From a virus: a stretch of DNA of 64,000 bases. The stretch is from IMG/VR virus record IMGVR_UViG_3300020430_000008, positions 1 through 64,000 of that record; one strand, 5' to 3'. The notes beneath the pieces are model-generated. The model had not been told where the DNA came from and did not search any database. It worked only from the letters and a program-made list of their open reading frames with translations. Below, one piece after another: positions 24,301 to 30,143 of this stretch. Every line of letters starts with the position of its first letter. Position 1 is the stretch's first letter. A program made the translations under genes and the position numbers.

Positions 24301-26900
24301 GCAGTGGCAGCGATAGTAAGAGCACCACCTGCAGCGATTGTAGCATCACCGGAGACATTGCCAAATACAGTGTCCTCCAAGTTTGAAATTGTGATAGCTT
24401 TTAATTTTTCGCCAGCATTGCCATCAGCATCAAAAATCAACAACTCATCTGACTGGGCAGCAGTGGCTCCTAAGTTTGTTGCGGAGCCGATAACGTTTTC
24501 ATTAACCATGCCATCTTCAACAGCGGCAGCAGCGATAGTCACAGCGCCTGCACTGGAAATAGTAACATCTCCTGAAACAGTAACCTCTTGATAACTTGTG
24601 CCATCTGCAACAAGAATCTTCGCAGCTTGGTTGTCGGGCATTGCAAAGGTGGTTCCAACGGTCAGAGAGCCGGAAGTTTCAATATCGTTTGCAACAACCT
24701 TAGCCACATGAACCTCACCAGAACCCGTAACTGGTCCGAGAGCAGCAGAGATATGCATCGAAGAGTTGACTTGAGGATGGGAAATGAAATCATCTTTGAC
24801 TCTTACATGAAATGCAAATTTCCCAAGATCCGTAGAATACATAACCATGTCAGTATCAGGAGTATTGGTGCCGGCATTAAAACTGATTAAGTTGTGACTA
24901 CCGGAGCCATCATAACTCGTCATAGTCATCATGTTGTTACTACCGGCGCGGAATTGAATAGTATCGTTGGCTAAGTGTATGTATGTATCTGAGTGACCGT
25001 CTTCACCATCACCTAGGTGACGAATGTAATCAGCGGCGTGAATCTCTCCACCAAAGATTGCGTTACTGCTTACTTCCAGCGAGCCTGTGACTTGGTGAGT
25101 TTCTGCAGCGGTAGAGCCAAGGATGCTTGAGCCAGAAACATACAGATATCCAGAGGTGTCGAATCCAACTGGGGAATATGTACGATTGGTTGTGAGACTG
25201 GAAGAAGCATAGTTTGATCTGTCAACTACAATGCCGTGTGCCGTACCTGAGATATAAAGGTCGTTAACATAAAGGTGCTCAGCTTTAATGTCATGGGAAG
25301 CCGACATACCACCTACGATATAAAGTGCATGGCTTGAACCAGAAGCATCGATTGTCGCGATACTATTGCCAACCGCCGCGCCAGCTACAGTGGCGGCGCT
25401 ACCGACAGCAAGTACGGGTCCAGTACCGTGAGCAGCGGCACCAGAGATCCACATATCATTGCCTACAAATTTAGCTGCGTGGATTTCACCGGAGCCTGTG
25501 ATTGGTCCGAGAGCAGCGGAGATGTGCATCGAAGAGTTGACTTGGGGGTGAGAGATGAGTGGATCGAGAGCGCGGACATGGAATGCAAACGTACCGTCAG
25601 TTGAATACATCGCCATGTCAGTATCTGGGTCGTTTGATCCGGCATTGAAGCTGATCAAATTCTGACTACCGGAGCCATCATAGCTCGTCATGGTGATCAT
25701 GTTGTTGCTACCAGCGCGGAATTGAATAGCATCGGTAGCTAGGAGCATGTATGTATCTGAATGTCCGTCTTCGCCGTCGCCTAGGTGACGGATGTAATTG
25801 GCAGCGTGAATCTCTCCACCAATGATCGTATTACTGCTTACTTCCAGCGTGCCCGTGACCTGTGTTCCTACAGAATCGACAACCATCCGTGTGTTCAGAC
25901 CGTCCGTACCGATGCGTAACTTCTTCGTGTTACCGGAATAATCAATCCAGCCTTCGCCATCGTTTGCGTTTGTATTTCCAGCAAACCTAATAGTACCGAC
26001 ACCGGTTGCAGTAGAGGCAATTGTCATTCCACGGTTGCCTGTTAAGTCACCAATAACAAGATCGTTCTTTTCATCGGGCTGTGCGAGAGGATTGCTCCCG
26101 CCAATGTGGACAGAGCCAGAAGTGTGGATATCGTTACTTACAAATCTAGCCGCGTGAATCTCGCCAGAGCCTGTGATTGGTCCGAGAGAGGCTGTGATAT
26201 GTAATGAGCCATTGGTTGCAACATCAGCGTCGTTACCTCTAAGATAGAAATGGTATTTTGGGGAATCACCATCATTGTAATGACCGTCACGCATAAAGAA
26301 ATCTGTATCGTTCGTAGTGCCGTCATCGTCAGCATTGCTGCTAGCATTCAACCCAATGAAGTTTTGGCTACCGGATGCGTCAGAGCCATATATTCGCAGC
26401 ATATTTGTGCTGCCGGCGCGGAAGGTCATCTGATCCGTGCCCAAAAGGATATATGTGTCCGAATGACCGTCTTCGCCATCACCATGGTGGCGAATGTAGT
26501 TGGCAACATGAACCTCGTCGCTCAAGATGGTTTTGCCACTAACTTCCAGCGAGCCTGTGCGCTGGTGAGTGTCGTCGCTGGTGTCACCGAACTGTGTACT
26601 ACCCGATACCTGAACCTCTGTGGAGGTCACCTGCCTGATTGTGTAAGTCTCAGCATGGACCGCGCCACTAATGTACATGTTTCCATACAAGTACAGCGCG
26701 GAACCGCTAGCGTCAGGAGCAGACTTGTGCCCATCTGTTGCGGCATAAAATACTAAATCTTCTGAGCCGCTGAACTGACCGGGTACTAAATCTTCACTAC
26801 CCCATCTAAACTGTAGTGAGCCGGATGGACCGTCAGCAGAAGCTGTTGCTCGCTGAGCGTCAATATACGCCCATCCATAATCATCGGGTGGTGGAGCCAT
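21360..26900 (-). CDS. Long fibre protein with a C-terminal intramolecular-chaperone/autocleavage (Peptidase_G2-like) domain
   Basis: 1,846 aa with GNVGIGTDSPDHKLHV fibre motifs and a C-terminal FTGRH...VNSTGEGLVWV...GDYICST..PGYG.KQADDLLHSYTVAK...CTYNCG pattern. Confidence 0.75.
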   Translation of the reverse strand: MAPPPDDYGWAYIDAQRATASADGPSGSLQFRWGSEDLVPGQFSGSEDLVFYAATDGHKSAPDASGSALYLYGNMYISGAVHAETYTIRQVTSTEVQVSGSTQFGDTSDDTHQRTGSLEVSGKTILSDEVHVANYIRHHGDGEDGHSDTYILLGTDQMTFRAGSTNMLRIYGSDASGSQNFIGLNASSNADDDGTTNDTDFFMRDGHYNDGDSPKYHFYLRGNDADVATNGSLHITASLGPITGSGEIHAARFVSNDIHTSGSVHIGGSNPLAQPDEKNDLVIGDLTGNRGMTIASTATGVGTIRFAGNTNANDGEGWIDYSGNTKKLRIGTDGLNTRMVVDSVGTQVTGTLEVSSNTIIGGEIHAANYIRHLGDGEDGHSDTYMLLATDAIQFRAGSNNMITMTSYDGSGSQNLISFNAGSNDPDTDMAMYSTDGTFAFHVRALDPLISHPQVNSSMHISAALGPITGSGEIHAAKFVGNDMWISGAAAHGTGPVLAVGSAATVAGAAVGNSIATIDASGSSHALYIVGGMSASHDIKAEHLYVNDLYISGTAHGIVVDRSNYASSSLTTNRTYSPVGFDTSGYLYVSGSSILGSTAAETHQVTGSLEVSSNAIFGGEIHAADYIRHLGDGEDGHSDTYIHLANDTIQFRAGSNNMMTMTSYDGSGSHNLISFNAGTNTPDTDMVMYSTDLGKFAFHVRVKDDFISHPQVNSSMHISAALGPVTGSGEVHVAKVVANDIETSGSLTVGTTFAMPDNQAAKILVADGTSYQEVTVSGDVTISSAGAVTIAAAAVEDGMVNENVIGSATNLGATAAQSDELLIFDADGNAGEKLKAITISNLEDTVFGNVSGDATIAAGGALTIAATAVENSMLAGSIDDSKLNTISTAGKVALSALEIDGANDIGAALADSDLIIVDDGANGTNRKAEMSRIKTYTKTDVGTAGTVEGDKAIIVSNAASITGGLTSVTGSKDLYFKDVKATSNLISDGGLLASGSSILGSANGHTHQVTGSFEAQSISGSSTLSAQGGAHIGGLGLTLDGAGIKFNVSPSAGTVNLSVDDGLGADVAMTFGRNGKVTKIGDDTPSDGQYLSWDALGGKVAWSDGTTPDMSGSDPHYSSTELRTSGDLKVSGSVTLGAGATLSGSAAGPGSYLVLDTNNNIKIDTAASTYTNDGAFIEWGTDAEIKLQHIPDTGLRIENLNNGDNQQAILILKGGDGTVANADPIGALHFMGSDAGGGDSANLLASVEASASFTHASDRNDTTLVFKTAGQDAPEAVRAIMIDEEQTLRGYEAAGTTEGWNITPSGSATFADLAIKGNIVHVSDVDTAIKFTPNTMSLHAGNNTQPLLELSQNSVVFNEGSNSANFRIESNGKQNAFFIDGADNNEQVLIVDGYDNGGISIAKSGSLLVGSWAHFDGDVTIIGDLTVAGNDIKSNTGNTVLSFDNDGYIDNDVVIQSNTAQLSLASKTGETKLALYGPGGTISNGGNIGSIRWYGTETDGIAGNPAQTAYILVEGDEAAWTYNSSLGTMMKFAVGVDGSTSIDEVLYITGISGEARIGISEDAPANLLDINGAVAIGSSYAGSSTAPTGGMVVQGNVGIGTDSPDHKLHVAATQASSFVGIFENAATGNQADVLRLKVNDSTGDIDSGHCFLQMRSATAAVGKIIGDGSNGVSYLDAFTGRHPTVTADPIGSLVVGLIVSSTGEIWMKNESTVSTGLPKVSVASTDNDKAVFGVLSRIETSDDTDDYFYGGYHAPENVGENETPIVVNSTGEGLVWVTNKNGEVERGDYICSTVVPGYGGKQADDLLHSYTVAKCVETIDWASVTDTIEHDGVTYKRYLAACTYNCG
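24690..26570 (-). repeat. Three dispersed ~135-150-aa repeats in the long fibre
   Basis: TGSLEVS...HAANYIRHLGDGEDGHSDTY...FRAGSNNM...LGPITGSGEIHAA occurs at ~26130-26570, ~25460-25870 and ~24690-25100, with near-identical DNA blocks. Confidence 0.85.
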
Positions 26901-27258
26901 TTGAGCCGCCTCCCTTGGCTCTCATACGGCGCAGCTTACTTTGGCGCTTGCGCTGGGCTTCTTTCTTTCGTTCAGCCTTCTTGCGGAGCCTTTCTGCCTC
27001 TCGAATAGCCGCAGCGCGCTTGAGGCGCTTGGCGTCAGAGGGTTTTGTGTAATATCTATTCTCACGGACTTGTTCAACAATCCGCTCTTTCTTGCACTTA
27101 CGGACAAAGCGACGGATCATCTTCTCGGCAGGCTCGCCCTTGCGTGCAACGACAGTAACATTCGACTGTCTTGGTGGTCCCGGCACAACCTCTCTCTCGT
27201 AACGGCGAGGTCTGTGCGTACGGCGTCTGTTATGATTTCTGTTTCTACGGAATGCCAT
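26881..27258 (-). CDS. rpsU: Phage-encoded 30S ribosomal protein bS21 homolog with Arg-rich extensions
   Basis: Core VTVVARKGEPAEKMIRRFVRKCKKERIVEQVRENRYYTKPSDAKRLKRAAA matches the bS21 consensus (V.V...E..E.ALRRFKR......I..E.R.R..YEKPS..R..K). Confidence 0.88.
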   Translation of the reverse strand: MAFRRNRNHNRRRTHRPRRYEREVVPGPPRQSNVTVVARKGEPAEKMIRRFVRKCKKERIVEQVRENRYYTKPSDAKRLKRAAAIREAERLRKKAERKKEAQRKRQSKLRRMRAKGGGSNGSTTR

Positions 27259-28188: not shown

Positions 28189-28539
28189 CTACTCCCCTTC
28201 CGGCATATCGAGCGGCGGCTCGCCATCCTCGGCAGGAATAGCTCCCATCTCTCTGGCTAGGTCCATCATGAGTTGTGATGGCGTCATTCCCAGCGCGTCA
28301 GCGGCTGCATCCAAAGTAGGGGTTCCGCTATCGCGAGCGGCGACACGTCCGCGAACCGTAGCGGCTTGGTAGCCGGGACGATCACGGTGAGAAGGACCGG
28401 GCTTGGCTCCAGCATATGCTTCTTCCACAGCTTCGTCTTCTGTCTCAGTGTTCTCGGTCACTTCTTCCTCTTCTTCGTTCACGACTGCCTCAAGCTCTTC
28501 CTTAATAATCTGCTTAAGTCTTGCTTTACTAATCTTCAT
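28189..28539 (-). CDS. Small acidic putative internal head protein (MKISKARLKQIIKEEL N-terminus)
   Basis: 116-aa ORF directly after the prohead protease. Confidence 0.65.
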   Translation of the reverse strand: MKISKARLKQIIKEELEAVVNEEEEEVTENTETEDEAVEEAYAGAKPGPSHRDRPGYQAATVRGRVAARDSGTPTLDAAADALGMTPSQLMMDLAREMGAIPAEDGEPPLDMPEGE

Positions 28540-28543
28540 TTGT

Positions 28544-29152
28544 TTAATCCTCGACGATATCGTTTAATAGGCGATTAATCTTATCTGCCTTTGTAAATAC
28601 ATTTGGTTCTTTGTAGGTCTTACCCTCGCTGAGCCCCATAAAGGCATTGGGAGTCGAAGGCTCTGATACGAAGTCGAAACAGATTAACTGAAAATCATCC
28701 TCTACAATCGTGCGCCCTTGAGCCTCGCTGACCGAACCAAGTCCGCGTGACGAAATCCCGAGTTTCACACCGTCATTGACAAGCTCTTGAAGAATCTTGC
28801 CGGATGGTGTATTTAAAATTTTGACCTTTCCCATAACATTAGGACCGTCCCACCACATGTCAGTGACCATGTGCGAAGCGTTCTTAAGGTTAATAACCGA
28901 ATCCTCGGGGTGGTCTAATTCCCCAAGGGCTCTTTTTTCTTGTACAAGCTTTTGATAGGTCTTCACCTCTCTCTCAAGAATCTTTCTTGGATAGATGCGA
29001 CCATTGCCATTCTGAACATCAGCTTCTTGCAGCTTGCCAGAAAGCATCATGCCACCTTGGTTGACATAGATCTTTTCCTCTTCCGTCAAGAGATCCTGAC
29101 AGACGCCGCCTTCGCATAGCTCATAATATTCTCGTAAAAGTACTTTCTTCAT
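28544..29152 (-). CDS. gp21: Prohead protease (T4 gp21-like)
   Basis: NGNGRIYP, GELDHP (His), ISSRGLGS (Ser) and DFVSEPS motifs. Confidence 0.95.
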   Translation of the reverse strand: MKKVLLREYYELCEGGVCQDLLTEEEKIYVNQGGMMLSGKLQEADVQNGNGRIYPRKILEREVKTYQKLVQEKRALGELDHPEDSVINLKNASHMVTDMWWDGPNVMGKVKILNTPSGKILQELVNDGVKLGISSRGLGSVSEAQGRTIVEDDFQLICFDFVSEPSTPNAFMGLSEGKTYKEPNVFTKADKINRLLNDIVED

Positions 29153-29169
29153 AATATCTCTCTGGTGAA

Positions 29170-29194
29170 TGACGGGCGCTACCCGCCCGAGTCA
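29170..29194 (-). other. RNA hairpin containing the UGA stop of the leader peptide
   Basis: UGA-CU-CGGGCG-GGUAG-CGCCCG-UCA: a 6-bp GC stem plus UGA/UCA pairing, with no U-tract. Confidence 0.65.
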
Positions 29195-29260
29195 GCAGCC
29201 CTTCTTGCAGTTACGCACTGGCTGCAGCATCCACTTAGCTGTCCAAATGTTAGTGTTCAT
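29192..29260 (-). CDS. Unannotated 22-aa Cys peptide MNTNIWTAKWMLQPVRNCKKGC(UGA), in frame with the prohead protease
   Basis: Strong SD AAGGAG 5 nt before the ATG at 29260; 29260-29152 = 108 nt, so it is in frame, with only the UGA in between. Confidence 0.65.
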   Translation of the reverse strand: MNTNIWTAKWMLQPVRNCKKGC

Positions 29261-29558
29261 CGTTACTCCTTGCAATTTGAATGCCGTTATCTCCAAAGAC
29301 CGTGCAAAGCACATATGAAACGGCTGACGATACAAATCCACAAATCAGAAAATTAGCGGCTGTATACTCAAACGTAAATAGTTCTGTATTGTAGTTAACG
29401 CCGAACAAAAATAAGCCCACCCAGAAGCCCAAACACATCGGACACTGGAAGAGCTTTCCCATAGAACCTTTTGTCGGGCGAATATTATCAAAGATAGAAC
29501 CGTAGACTAACATCTGGGTAAGCCCATATGCGGCTAAACTAAACCATAATAAATCCAT
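29250..29558 (-). CDS. DUF1360-like small membrane protein with CxxC
   Basis: GSIFDNIR...GKLFQCPMCLGFWVG pattern; about three hydrophobic helices. Confidence 0.7.
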   Translation of the reverse strand: MDLLWFSLAAYGLTQMLVYGSIFDNIRPTKGSMGKLFQCPMCLGFWVGLFLFGVNYNTELFTFEYTAANFLICGFVSSAVSYVLCTVFGDNGIQIARSNDEH

Positions 29559-29567
29559 TAATACCTC

Positions 29568-30143
29568 TTATGCTCTGTAAAATCTGTTATGCATGTATGC
29601 GTTGCGATAAATACCGGGACGAATCGAGCCCTTCTCTCGCTTGTGCGGTACTTCACCAAGCTCAGTTGACTCTTCTGCATCGGGATTGAGAAGCCTATCT
29701 TCTTCCTGCTCATCGTACATACGCTGGTACATGAACCTCGGCGCTTCCTCTTCCATAAACTTAGTAATATTGAGAATCGCGACATTGATCGCATCTAAAC
29801 CTTCGCCTACTGGCTCTTCAAGTACTCCTTGCATAGCTCCGTATACATTCCCGCCTTCAACAGAGTCGCGCTTGATCACGCCTTTCTTAGAAAGGTAATC
29901 AAACAATCGACTCTGGGCGTCGTACACCATGTCGTTCACCTCGTCTTTCGCAAAAGCGATTACTTGCTTCTTGCTGGGTGACACAATGATATCGATATCT
30001 TCGTGATCATAGATAGCAAGATCCCCACCCATGGTCTTACGCACGTCAAGCGTAACAGTGGCTTGGGTTTCCCTTTCAGTGTCTACGCGATTTTCCTCAT
30101 CGTACTCGTCGCTCTTTCCTACCTTGATTACGAACTTTGCCAT
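29568..30143 (-). CDS. Hypothetical head-module protein
   Basis: 191-aa acidic ORF overlapping the upstream stop codon by 1 nt. Confidence 0.7.
   Translation of the reverse strand: MAKFVIKVGKSDEYDEENRVDTERETQATVTLDVRKTMGGDLAIYDHEDIDIIVSPSKKQVIAFAKDEVNDMVYDAQSRLFDYLSKKGVIKRDSVEGGNVYGAMQGVLEEPVGEGLDAINVAILNITKFMEEEAPRFMYQRMYDEQEEDRLLNPDAEESTELGEVPHKREKGSIRPGIYRNAYMHNRFYRA

What the first reader, a model, noticed from the sequence alone, without database searches (positions are those of the whole stretch)
29152..29275. Hidden Cys peptide ending GC-UGA plus hairpin, in frame with the prohead protease: candidate readthrough/recoding switch for head maturation
Seen in sequence: a strong SD (AAGGAG) leads an unannotated ORF, MNTNIWTAKWMLQPVRNCKKGC-UGA (29260-29192). 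The UGA sits at the base of a hairpin (UGA-CU-CGGGCG-GGUAG-CGCCCG-UCA) that has no U-tract. The frame then continues without a stop (LGRVAPVIHQRDI) into the protease ATG at 29152, whose own SD is weak (GAGAG). A late-promoter-like ACTATTTAC at 29374-29382 would make the peptide the first cistron. Known: UGA-C is a leaky stop context, bacterial SECIS hairpins carry a GU-containing apical loop, and T4 gp21 cleaves after L/I-x-E; an LLRE follows the junction. Inference: this is either (a) programmed readthrough or selenocysteine insertion giving a 36-aa Cys/Sec N-terminal extension (CKKGCU), or (b) a leader peptide plus hairpin that meters protease translation. The UGA-to-loop distance (8 nt) is shorter than in canonical SECIS elements, so Sec is the weaker option.
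Basis: partly seen in the sequence, partly recalled or inferred. Interest (0 to 1): 0.85.

Follow-up and report, generated by a model that had tools for sequence, protein, structure and literature searches.

The report
Conserved two-cysteine phage micro-gene, not recoding
The 22-codon ORF in front of the head-maturation protease is a real, very strongly conserved but unannotated small gene of uncultured marine T4-like phages. It ends at an ordinary stop codon followed by a terminator-type hairpin, so it is not a selenocysteine or readthrough switch.

Summary

- **Stop codon and frame:** in 120 distinct related loci the ORF ends in TAG (56), TGA (36) or TAA (28). Where a spacer exists, its frame relative to the protease is random (12 of 32 in frame). 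In most relatives there is no hairpin, and the stop lies 2 nt before the next ATG.
- **Sec/suppression:** there is no SECIS match and no suppressor or Sec tRNA.
- **The peptide:** it is under strong coding selection, with third-codon-position entropy of 1.31 against 0.44-0.46 at positions 1 and 2. It was found in every testable locus (about 220). It always keeps two cysteines (CC..S or CK..C). It matches nothing in protein or family databases.
- **The hairpin:** Five base pairs show compensatory changes. Seventeen of 45 lineages carry a U-run; this window has lost it.
- **Upstream motif:** GAACTATTTA, inside the upstream DUF1360 gene, is fixed at synonymous sites. It resembles a strand-specific motif upstream of other genes.

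Best reading: an independently translated micro-protein of the head module, probably the first cistron of an internal transcript. Its function is unknown.

This scan has already found and followed up the same micro-gene on other DNA.

The parts
29375..29384 (-). GAACTATTTA, a promoter-like motif embedded in the DUF1360 gene (codons Glu-Leu-Phe-Thr), 114 nt upstream of the micro-gene ATG
   Evidence: The motif is fixed at synonymous sites in 120 distinct DUF1360 genes. Leu is CTA in 119 of 120, although CTA is the rarest Leu codon here (5.4%). GAA is used in 116 of 116 and TTT in 120 of 120, while the preceding Thr codon varies freely. CTATTTA[TC] occurs 16 times on the gene strand and 0 times on the other strand of the 141-kb record. 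Five window copies are intergenic and upstream of genes, three of them just after terminators. Promoter function is inferred, not shown.
29250..29558 (-). DUF1360-like small membrane protein gene (102 aa, CPMC motif); its 3' end overlaps the SD and start of the micro-gene
   Evidence: Pfam PF07098, E 2.4e-6. It lies upstream of the micro-gene in all testable loci.
29266..29271 (-). Shine-Dalgarno AAGGAG of the micro-gene
   Evidence: An SD-like sequence lies at -16..-4 in 141 of 154 related loci.
29192..29260 (-). Micro-gene: 22 codons plus TGA (MNTNIWTAKWMLQPVRNCKKGC)
   Evidence: Codon-position entropy is 0.44/0.46/1.31. Synonymous:nonsynonymous codon differences are 14185:7415 in frame, against 1641:19990 and 2486:19250 off frame. 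It is present in 80/80, 80/80 and 62/62 testable loci.
29171..29187 (-). Conserved hairpin G-GCGGGU / AGC / GCCCGU-C. The stem starts 5 nt after the stop, and this phage has no U-run.
Evidence: Alignment A1 has 45 distinct lineages. The six core pairs are 100% paired and 5 pairs carry compensatory changes; 0 of 500 shuffles reach the observed values. A U-rich tail is present in 17 of 45. The hairpin is unique in the genome.
28544..29152 (-). Prohead protease (Peptidase_S77, 202 aa). It has a weak SD and an N-terminal LLRE-YYELC-x4-C-QDLLTE region.
   Evidence: Pfam E 1.8e-34. The N-terminal Cys pair is invariant in all loci examined.

Best explanation
The ORF is an independent protein-coding micro-gene. 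It has 16-29 codons in relatives and 22 here. It belongs to a large clade of uncultured marine T4-like phages and sits in the head-morphogenesis module, between a DUF1360 membrane-protein gene and the prohead protease.

It has its own SD and ATG and ends at an ordinary stop codon. Its product is a basic peptide with the core KWMLQPVR-x-C-C/K-x-G-S/C that always keeps two cysteines. The peptide most likely acts in trans in head assembly; this step is inferred from gene position only.

A 10-nt element, GAACTATTTA, is frozen inside the DUF1360 coding sequence and probably serves as an internal promoter. That would make the micro-gene the first complete cistron of the transcript that continues into the protease (inferred).

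The hairpin after the stop is an RNA-level transcript-punctuation element. In relatives with a U-run it looks like an intrinsic terminator or attenuator. In this phage the U-run has decayed, so it is at most a weak terminator or a stability hairpin.

The open frame into the protease is a coincidence of the WIN/L001 lineage.
For: **Coding**
- There is strong 3-periodicity and an excess of synonymous changes only in this frame.
- ATG and SD are conserved.
- The ORF is present in every testable related locus. The protease in those loci is only 55-99% identical and the DUF1360 protein only 37-92%.
- The number of cysteines is kept at two by a paired switch, CC..S to CK..C: 13 sequences have K at the second position and 13 have C at the last.

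**Independence**
- Another gene is inserted between the micro-gene and the protease in 39 of 120 loci.
- Another gene is inserted between DUF1360 and the micro-gene in about 7 loci.
- No fused form was found.

**Not recoding**
- All three stop codons occur, and the frame relative to the protease is random.
- There is no SECIS match.
- There is no suppressor tRNA, and all three stops are used normally in long ORFs.

**Hairpin**
- Covariation supports the shifted register.
- Unrelated hairpins occupy the same place in L073, L104 and L140.
- U-runs follow the hairpin in 17 of 45 lineages.
- In L267 the order is hairpin plus U-run, then ACTATTTAT, then the protease.
- On the protease tree the window's 7-member clade has 4 members with a U-run and 3 without.

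**Promoter-like motif:**
Against: - There is no expression, transcript-end or proteomic evidence; all relatives are uncultured.
- The peptide's function is unknown. It has no homologue in Pfam, PHROGs, 50,697 phage genomes or a 5.8-billion-protein index.
- An AlphaFold2 model of the natural read-through fusion left the peptide and the protease N-terminus disordered (pLDDT below 50 for residues 1-52).
- Two features are not explained by a plain terminator: the absolutely fixed 5-nt spacing between the stop position and the stem, and the invariant C at column 6 in 45 of 45 lineages.
- Twenty-eight of the 45 hairpin lineages, including this one, have no U-run.
- The tree used for the ancestral-state remarks is a quick tree with a midpoint root.
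Confidence: 0.72

Rival explanations
1. Cis-acting leader peptide. Translation of the micro-ORF, together with the hairpin placed 5 nt after its stop, meters transcription or translation of the downstream protease and scaffold genes. For example, a terminating ribosome could melt a terminator hairpin, or expression could be set by termination-reinitiation coupling.
For: - The micro-ORF is probably the first cistron after the conserved promoter-like motif.
- In hairpin-less lineages its stop is 2 nt before the next ATG, whichever gene follows; this was seen in 37 of 81 adjacent cases.
- The Lys-Gly codons supply an AAGG SD for the next gene.
- The stop-to-stem spacing is invariant in 45 lineages, and unrelated hairpins sit at the same distance. 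From general knowledge of ribosome footprints, a terminating ribosome would cover the 5' arm of the stem.
- The protease SD in this clade is weak compared with other genes of the phage.
Against: - Nearly every residue of a 14-aa core is conserved, and a paired Cys switch is kept. That fits a folded or binding peptide better than a spacer ORF.
- Thirteen of 45 hairpin lineages lost the stop and carry C-terminal extensions of 8-18 aa.
- No alternative (antiterminator) structure exists. Pairing of the 5' flank with the next SD is predicted in only 8 of 45 lineages.
- The downstream gene differs between phages.
Confidence: 0.17
2. Programmed stop-codon readthrough stimulated by the 3' hairpin. It would give either a C-terminally extended peptide (..LGRVAPV..) or, in this phage, a 36-aa N-terminal extension of the protease.
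For: - UGA-C is a leaky context (general knowledge).
- A hairpin follows the stop at a fixed short distance.
- In 13 of 45 hairpin lineages the same codon is sense and the ORF runs through the hairpin.
- The window's frame is open into the protease.
Against: - The frame relative to the protease is random: 12, 14 and 6 loci in frames 0, 1 and 2 among the 32 with a spacer. Close relatives L002-L008 have in-frame stops or other frames.
- The extension shows no coding conservation. Only the stem-encoded residues are constant, loop positions change the amino acid (A/T/M/V), and the two codons after the stop vary freely.
- Most relatives have no hairpin and no extension.
- All three stop codons are used.
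Confidence: 0.03
3. Selenocysteine insertion at the UGA, directed by the hairpin acting as a SECIS element.
For: A UGA directly follows Gly-Cys and lies next to a hairpin.
Against: - The homologous codon is TAG or TAA in 84 of 120 loci, and never Cys where it is sense.
- Rfam gives no SECIS match even at E up to 10.
- The stem starts 5 nt after the UGA.
- The hairpin loop is variable.
- The phage carries only tRNA-Asn, tRNA-Arg and a tmRNA.
Confidence: 0.005

Closest known systems
Unannotated phage small-protein (smORF) families, as catalogued and reviewed in PMC11364881 and PMC11323111 (search hits; papers not read in detail)
   Same: It is a gene of under 30 codons missed by gene callers. 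It is recognised by cross-genome conservation and a coding signature, and it has its own SD and start codon.
   Different: This family has no match in the databases searched here. It is more conserved than its flanking genes, sits in a fixed place in the head module, and carries an invariant Cys pair.
T4 small prohead-core proteins gp67 and gp68, encoded between portal gene 20 and protease gene 21 (general knowledge)
   Same: The genes occupy the same position: small genes between the portal and the S77-type prohead protease.
   Different: No sequence similarity was detected. The product is much smaller (16-29 aa against roughly 80-140 aa) and basic with two Cys. No evidence places it in the prohead.
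Intrinsic (Rho-independent) terminators and attenuators
   Same: It is a G+C-rich stem-loop directly after a stop codon. A U-run follows in 17 of 45 lineages. In L267 a promoter-like motif comes next, as at other gene boundaries of this phage.
   Different: The stem is short (6-7 bp) and almost invariant in sequence, and its spacing to the stop is fixed. The U-run is absent here and in 27 other lineages. Canonical terminators elsewhere in this genome have 8-13 bp stems and clear U-runs.
Regulatory leader or arrest peptides (TnaC, SpeFL, Erm leaders; general knowledge)
   Same: It is a short, sequence-conserved ORF containing Trp and Pro, placed first on the transcript just upstream of another gene.
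   Different: No sensing logic or alternative structure was found. The downstream gene is variable, and C-terminal extensions are tolerated.
Bacterial SECIS elements and hairpin-stimulated stop-codon readthrough (Q-beta A1, MuLV/alphavirus type; general knowledge)
   Same: A UGA-C is followed closely by a hairpin.
   Different: The stop identity is not conserved, the extension is not conserved as protein, and the frame relative to the protease is random.

Membership tests
Protein-coding small gene | Start codon with a ribosome-binding site | tested here: met
   AAGGAG lies 5 nt before the ATG. An SD-like sequence is present in 141 of 154 relatives.
Protein-coding small gene | Purifying selection on the amino-acid sequence, seen as codon periodicity and synonymous excess in one frame only | tested here: met
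   Entropy by codon position is 0.44/0.46/1.31. Synonymous:nonsynonymous differences are 14185:7415 in frame, against 1641:19990 and 2486:19250 off frame.
Protein-coding small gene | Evidence of translation (Ribo-seq or mass spectrometry) | not testable with these tools
   All relatives are uncultured, and no expression data are held.
Selenocysteine recoding (bacterial SECIS) | UGA conserved, or aligned with Cys, in homologues | tested here: not met
   Stops are TAG 56, TGA 36 and TAA 28. Sense variants are ATA, ATG, AGA, AGT and CAA.
Selenocysteine recoding (bacterial SECIS) | SECIS-like stem-loop recognised by a covariance model | tested here: not met
   Rfam 15 gives no match at E up to 10 over 28900-29700.
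Selenocysteine recoding (bacterial SECIS) | tRNA-Sec, SelA and SelB available | tested here: inconclusive
   The phage record has only tRNA-Asn, tRNA-Arg and a tmRNA. The host is unknown: 8 MAG hits fall in 7 different taxa, probably through mis-binning.
Programmed stop-codon readthrough | The extension downstream of the stop is conserved as protein and in a fixed frame | tested here: not met
   The frame relative to the protease is 12/14/6 among 32 loci with a spacer. Residues outside the stem vary freely.
Programmed stop-codon readthrough | Measured readthrough above background | not testable with these tools
   This needs a reporter assay.
Intrinsic terminator | G+C-rich hairpin supported by covariation | tested here: met
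   Five pairs show compensatory changes, the core is 100% paired, and 0 of 500 shuffles reach the observed values.
Intrinsic terminator | U-run directly 3' of the stem | tested here: not met
   The window has 2 T in the best 8-nt window, and the consensus scan does not call it. The feature is met in 17 of 45 related lineages.
Leader-peptide attenuator | Mutually exclusive RNA structures, or sequestration of the next RBS that is relieved by translation | tested here: not met
   Only a single hairpin is present. Pairing between the flank and the next SD is predicted in 8 of 45 lineages. The region's fold z-score is -0.9.
T4-type late promoter (TATAAATA) | Match to TATAAATA on the gene strand | tested here: not met
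   The recurrent motif here is CTATTTA[TC] on the gene strand. It is strand-specific (16 against 0) and conserved at synonymous sites. Its promoter activity is untested.

The most novel reading that the evidence does not exclude
The two-cysteine micro-protein completes an intermolecular thiol or metal site with another invariant Cys pair encoded next to it. The candidates are the C-x4-C in the protease N-terminal region, which is flanked by two L-x-E cleavage-type motifs, and the CPMC of the DUF1360 membrane protein. Such a site could tether or hold the prohead protease zymogen inactive until assembly. All three Cys pairs and the micro-gene co-occur in every locus of this clade. All are absent from the nearest cultured relatives (Flavobacterium phage immuto, Microcystis phage Mel-JY01, Synechococcus phage S-N03).
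Probability: 0.12. Interest if true: 0.75.

Novelty: new member of a known kind. Interest (0 to 1): 0.42.

Why it matters
The most conserved coding element in the head-assembly module of a widespread group of marine T4-like phages is a 16-29-codon gene. No gene caller or database records it. It shows how comparative signal can recover micro-genes, and it gives phage-assembly research a concrete, testable new component with a Cys pair, next to the maturation protease.

The case is also cautionary. A UGA followed by a hairpin and an open downstream frame looked like recoding, yet it is explained by an ordinary stop, a decayed terminator and a chance frame. The frozen GAACTATTTA element and the strand-specific CTATTTAY motif offer a candidate promoter consensus for these uncultured phages.

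Tried and rejected
I replaced it with the register shifted by 2-3 nt. In the window itself both conformers are similar in energy (-12.9 kcal/mol including the UGAC/GUCA extension, against -11.0).
2. **Anti-SD idea:** the invariant CUC after the stop might pair with the next gene's SD. This is predicted in only 8 of 45 lineages, so I rejected it as a general mechanism.
3. **Association of the 8-nt motif with the hairpin** (odds ratio 10): I discounted this because the 10-nt core is universal and the test ignores phylogeny.
4. **Fused forms:** none were found, either with the 49-aa extended ORF or among 120 DUF1360 homologues. The longer DUF1360 tails are out-of-frame read-across of the micro-gene.
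5. **Database searches:** tblastn of the peptide against 50,697 phage genomes gave no hit. PHROGs gave none. No Rfam family matched.
6. **AlphaFold2 of the natural TGA-read-through fusion**, with an alignment of peptides and proteases: residues 1-52 have pLDDT below 50. The result is uninformative, and no coordinates were available to check Cys distances.
7. **Host inference from genomes:** 8 MAG contigs from 7 unrelated taxa matched, probably through mis-binning.
8. **Repeated-element idea for the hairpin:** it is a single copy in the 141-kb record.

Full report
**Observation**

On the minus strand the upstream 102-aa gene (29558-29250) is a DUF1360-like membrane protein (Pfam E 2.4e-6). Its last codons contain AAGGAG (29271-29266). 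The ATG at 29260 opens a 22-codon ORF, MNTNIWTAKWMLQPVRNCKKGC, ending in TGA at 29194-29192. A G+C hairpin follows. The frame then stays open for 13 codons into the ATG at 29152 of a 202-aa Peptidase_S77 prohead protease (E 1.8e-34).

The window is part of a 141-kb IMG/VR virus record. Its protease is at most 47-51% identical to proteases of cultured phages: Flavobacterium phage immuto, Microcystis phage Mel-JY01 and T4-like cyanophages.

**The ORF is a real gene**

Three searches of viral contigs gathered about 220 related loci: one with the window's protease, one with a back-translated peptide pattern and one with a divergent protease.

- The ORF is present in 80 of 80 testable loci of the first set and in all 80 of the second.
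- It is present in 62 of 62 of the third set, once five divergent forms are read by eye, such as MRRMNIPEVRRCCSGS and MSLVSIRWFLPITRRCCRGK.
- Over 66 distinct nucleotide versions of the 17-codon core, entropy is 0.44, 0.46 and 1.31 at codon positions 1, 2 and 3.
- Synonymous:nonsynonymous codon differences are 14185:7415 in this frame, against 1641:19990 and 2486:19250 in the other two.
- The ATG and an SD-like sequence are kept in 141 of 154 loci.
- The N-terminal part varies in length, giving peptides of 16 to 29 residues. The core KWMLQPVR-x-C-C/K-x-G-S/C is almost invariant, although the flanking proteins are only 37-92% (DUF1360) and 55-99% (protease) identical.
- The peptide always has two cysteines. 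CCKGS switches to CK(K/N/S)GC as a pair: 13 sequences have K at the second position and 13 have C at the last.

The gene is single-copy in the genome. Nothing like it is recorded in the following searches:
- no PHROG;
- no tblastn hit in 50,697 phage genomes;
- no protein sharing its words in a 5.8-billion-cluster index, at near or longer lengths;
- no fused form among 120 DUF1360 homologues.

It is an independent gene. A gene of the MKIT..QLKQII family lies between it and the protease in 39 of 120 distinct loci. The same family lies between DUF1360 and the micro-gene in about seven loci.

**No recoding**

- Among 120 distinct loci the ORF ends in TAG (56), TGA (36) or TAA (28).
- In most lineages there is no hairpin and the stop lies 2 nt before the next ATG (TAGCTATG and the like). 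This holds for 37 of the 81 loci where the protease is adjacent, and it puts the protease in frame +2.
- Among the 32 adjacent loci with a spacer longer than 8 nt, the frames are 12, 14 and 6 for frames 0, 1 and 2. The in-frame state of the window is what chance gives.
- The closest relatives differ from the window. L002-L004 and L006-L008 have an in-frame stop before the protease, and L005 and L009 are out of frame.
- In 13 of 45 hairpin lineages the codon at the stop position is sense (ATA, ATG, AGA, AGT, CAA) and never Cys. L087 (TAA) and L148 (CAA) are otherwise identical over 42 nt.
- The resulting extensions are constant only where the stem encodes them (R-V-x-P-A). Loop positions change the amino acid, and the two codons after the stop vary freely. 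The constraint is therefore on RNA, not on protein.
- Rfam finds no SECIS or any other family.
- The phage carries tRNA-Asn, tRNA-Arg and a tmRNA but no suppressor or Sec tRNA. Its long ORFs end in all three stops: TAA 46, TGA 29, TAG 21.

**The hairpin**

Forty-five distinct lineages carry a hairpin at exactly the same distance from the stop position, with no indel (alignment A1).

- The structure with pairs at columns 9-14 and 18-23 (GCGGGU, a 3-nt loop, GCCCGY; window 29186-29172, plus G-C at 29187/29171) is 100% paired in its six core pairs.
- Five pairs carry compensatory changes, and no shuffle out of 500 reaches the observed values.
- Unrelated hairpins occupy the same place in L073, L104 and L140.
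- Seventeen of 45 lineages have at least 5 T in 8 nt after the stem. The window has 2 and is not called by the terminator scan.
- In the window's own seven-member clade, four members have the U-run and three (WIN, L001, L009) do not. On a quick, midpoint-rooted protease tree the deepest branches carry hairpins and the large hairpin-less group is nested. This suggests an old hairpin with repeated loss (tentative).
- The hairpin is unique in the genome.
- Other gene boundaries of this phage have canonical terminators with longer stems and clear U-runs.

**An embedded promoter-like element**

- In 120 distinct DUF1360 genes, Leu is CTA in 119, Glu is GAA in 116 of 116 and Phe is TTT in 120, while the preceding Thr codon varies freely.
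- CTA is the rarest Leu codon of this phage (5.4%) and makes up 14% of the other Leu codons in the same genes.
- CTATTTA[TC] occurs 16 times on the gene strand of the 141-kb record and never on the other strand.
- Five window copies are intergenic and lie 0-92 nt upstream of gene starts, three of them right after terminators.
- In L267 the order is micro-gene, hairpin with U-run, ACTATTTAT, then the protease.

The motif does not match the T4 late consensus. Its promoter function is an inference.

**Mechanism**

*Shown:* this is a translated-looking, strongly constrained micro-gene with an ordinary stop; a covarying RNA hairpin follows it; and a nucleotide-level constrained motif lies upstream.

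*Inferred:* the motif is an internal promoter, so the micro-gene is the first complete cistron. The hairpin is a terminator or attenuator, or a stability element, that is weakened in this phage. The peptide acts in trans in head assembly.

The cis-acting leader model is kept as the main rival. In its favour are the 2-nt stop-to-ATG coupling, the fixed 5-nt stop-to-stem spacing and the weak protease SD. Against it are the residue-level conservation, the Cys-pair switch, the tolerated extensions, the variable downstream gene and the lack of any alternative structure.

The fixed spacing and the invariant C at column 6 remain unexplained.

**Function lead**

The protease N-terminus (LLRE-YYELC-x4-C-QDLLTE), the DUF1360 CPMC motif and the micro-gene co-occur in every locus of the clade. 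All three are absent from the nearest cultured phages. An AlphaFold2 model of the natural read-through fusion left residues 1-52 below pLDDT 50, which says nothing either way.

**Earlier work in this scan**

The same micro-gene was already found on other DNA, and follow-up agents judged it a real two-cysteine micro-gene with an ordinary stop. My results agree with that. They add the corrected and covarying hairpin, the stop/sense alternation, the frame statistics and the frozen promoter-like element.

Noticed in passing
Same phage record, outside the window: G000:C1:121354-121687 (-) (locus L285:255-588): The phage encodes a full-length tmRNA. ARAGORN predicts the tag ANNNNHFDSARLAA, and Rfam RF00023 scores 127.6 bits (E 4.8e-51). 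tRNA-Asn(gtt) and tRNA-Arg(tct) lie at 111691-112380.
   Followed up: partly
window 45746, 27761, 11889, 8739, 6940 (minus strand): CTATTTA[TC] is strictly strand-specific: 16 copies on the gene strand and 0 on the other strand in 141 kb. In the window it sits upstream of genes, three times directly after a canonical terminator. It is a candidate promoter consensus for this phage group.
   Followed up: partly
window 28189-28539 (-); L014, L050, L059, L103, L117 and others: A gene family starting MKIT/MKIS..QLKQII.EE (116 aa here, downstream of the protease) occupies different slots in different phages. It is found between DUF1360 and the micro-gene, between the micro-gene and the protease, or after the protease.
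   Followed up: partly
window 29189 (column 6 of alignment A1): The C three nt after the stop position is invariant in 45 of 45 hairpin lineages, although it would be a third codon position in the lineages that read through. No structure explains it.
   Followed up: partly
window 29083-29140 (-), protease residues 5-24: The protease N-terminus has two L-x-E motifs (LLRE, LLTE) flanking an invariant C-x4-C. The Pfam S77 model does not cover this region, and it is absent from cultured relatives. It may be a pro-region.
   Followed up: partly
window 26881-27258 (-): A bS21-like ribosomal protein gene (Pfam PF01165, E 1.1e-12) with long basic extensions lies among the structural genes. Microcystis phage Mel-JY01 has an S21 gene in the same neighbourhood.
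   Followed up: no
L205-L212 (genome contigs): Contigs carrying the micro-gene are binned into MAGs of 7 unrelated taxa, including Legionellales, an archaeon, Flavobacteriaceae, Maricaulis, Pirellulaceae and Bacteriovoracaceae. These are probably phage contigs mis-binned into the MAGs.
   Followed up: no
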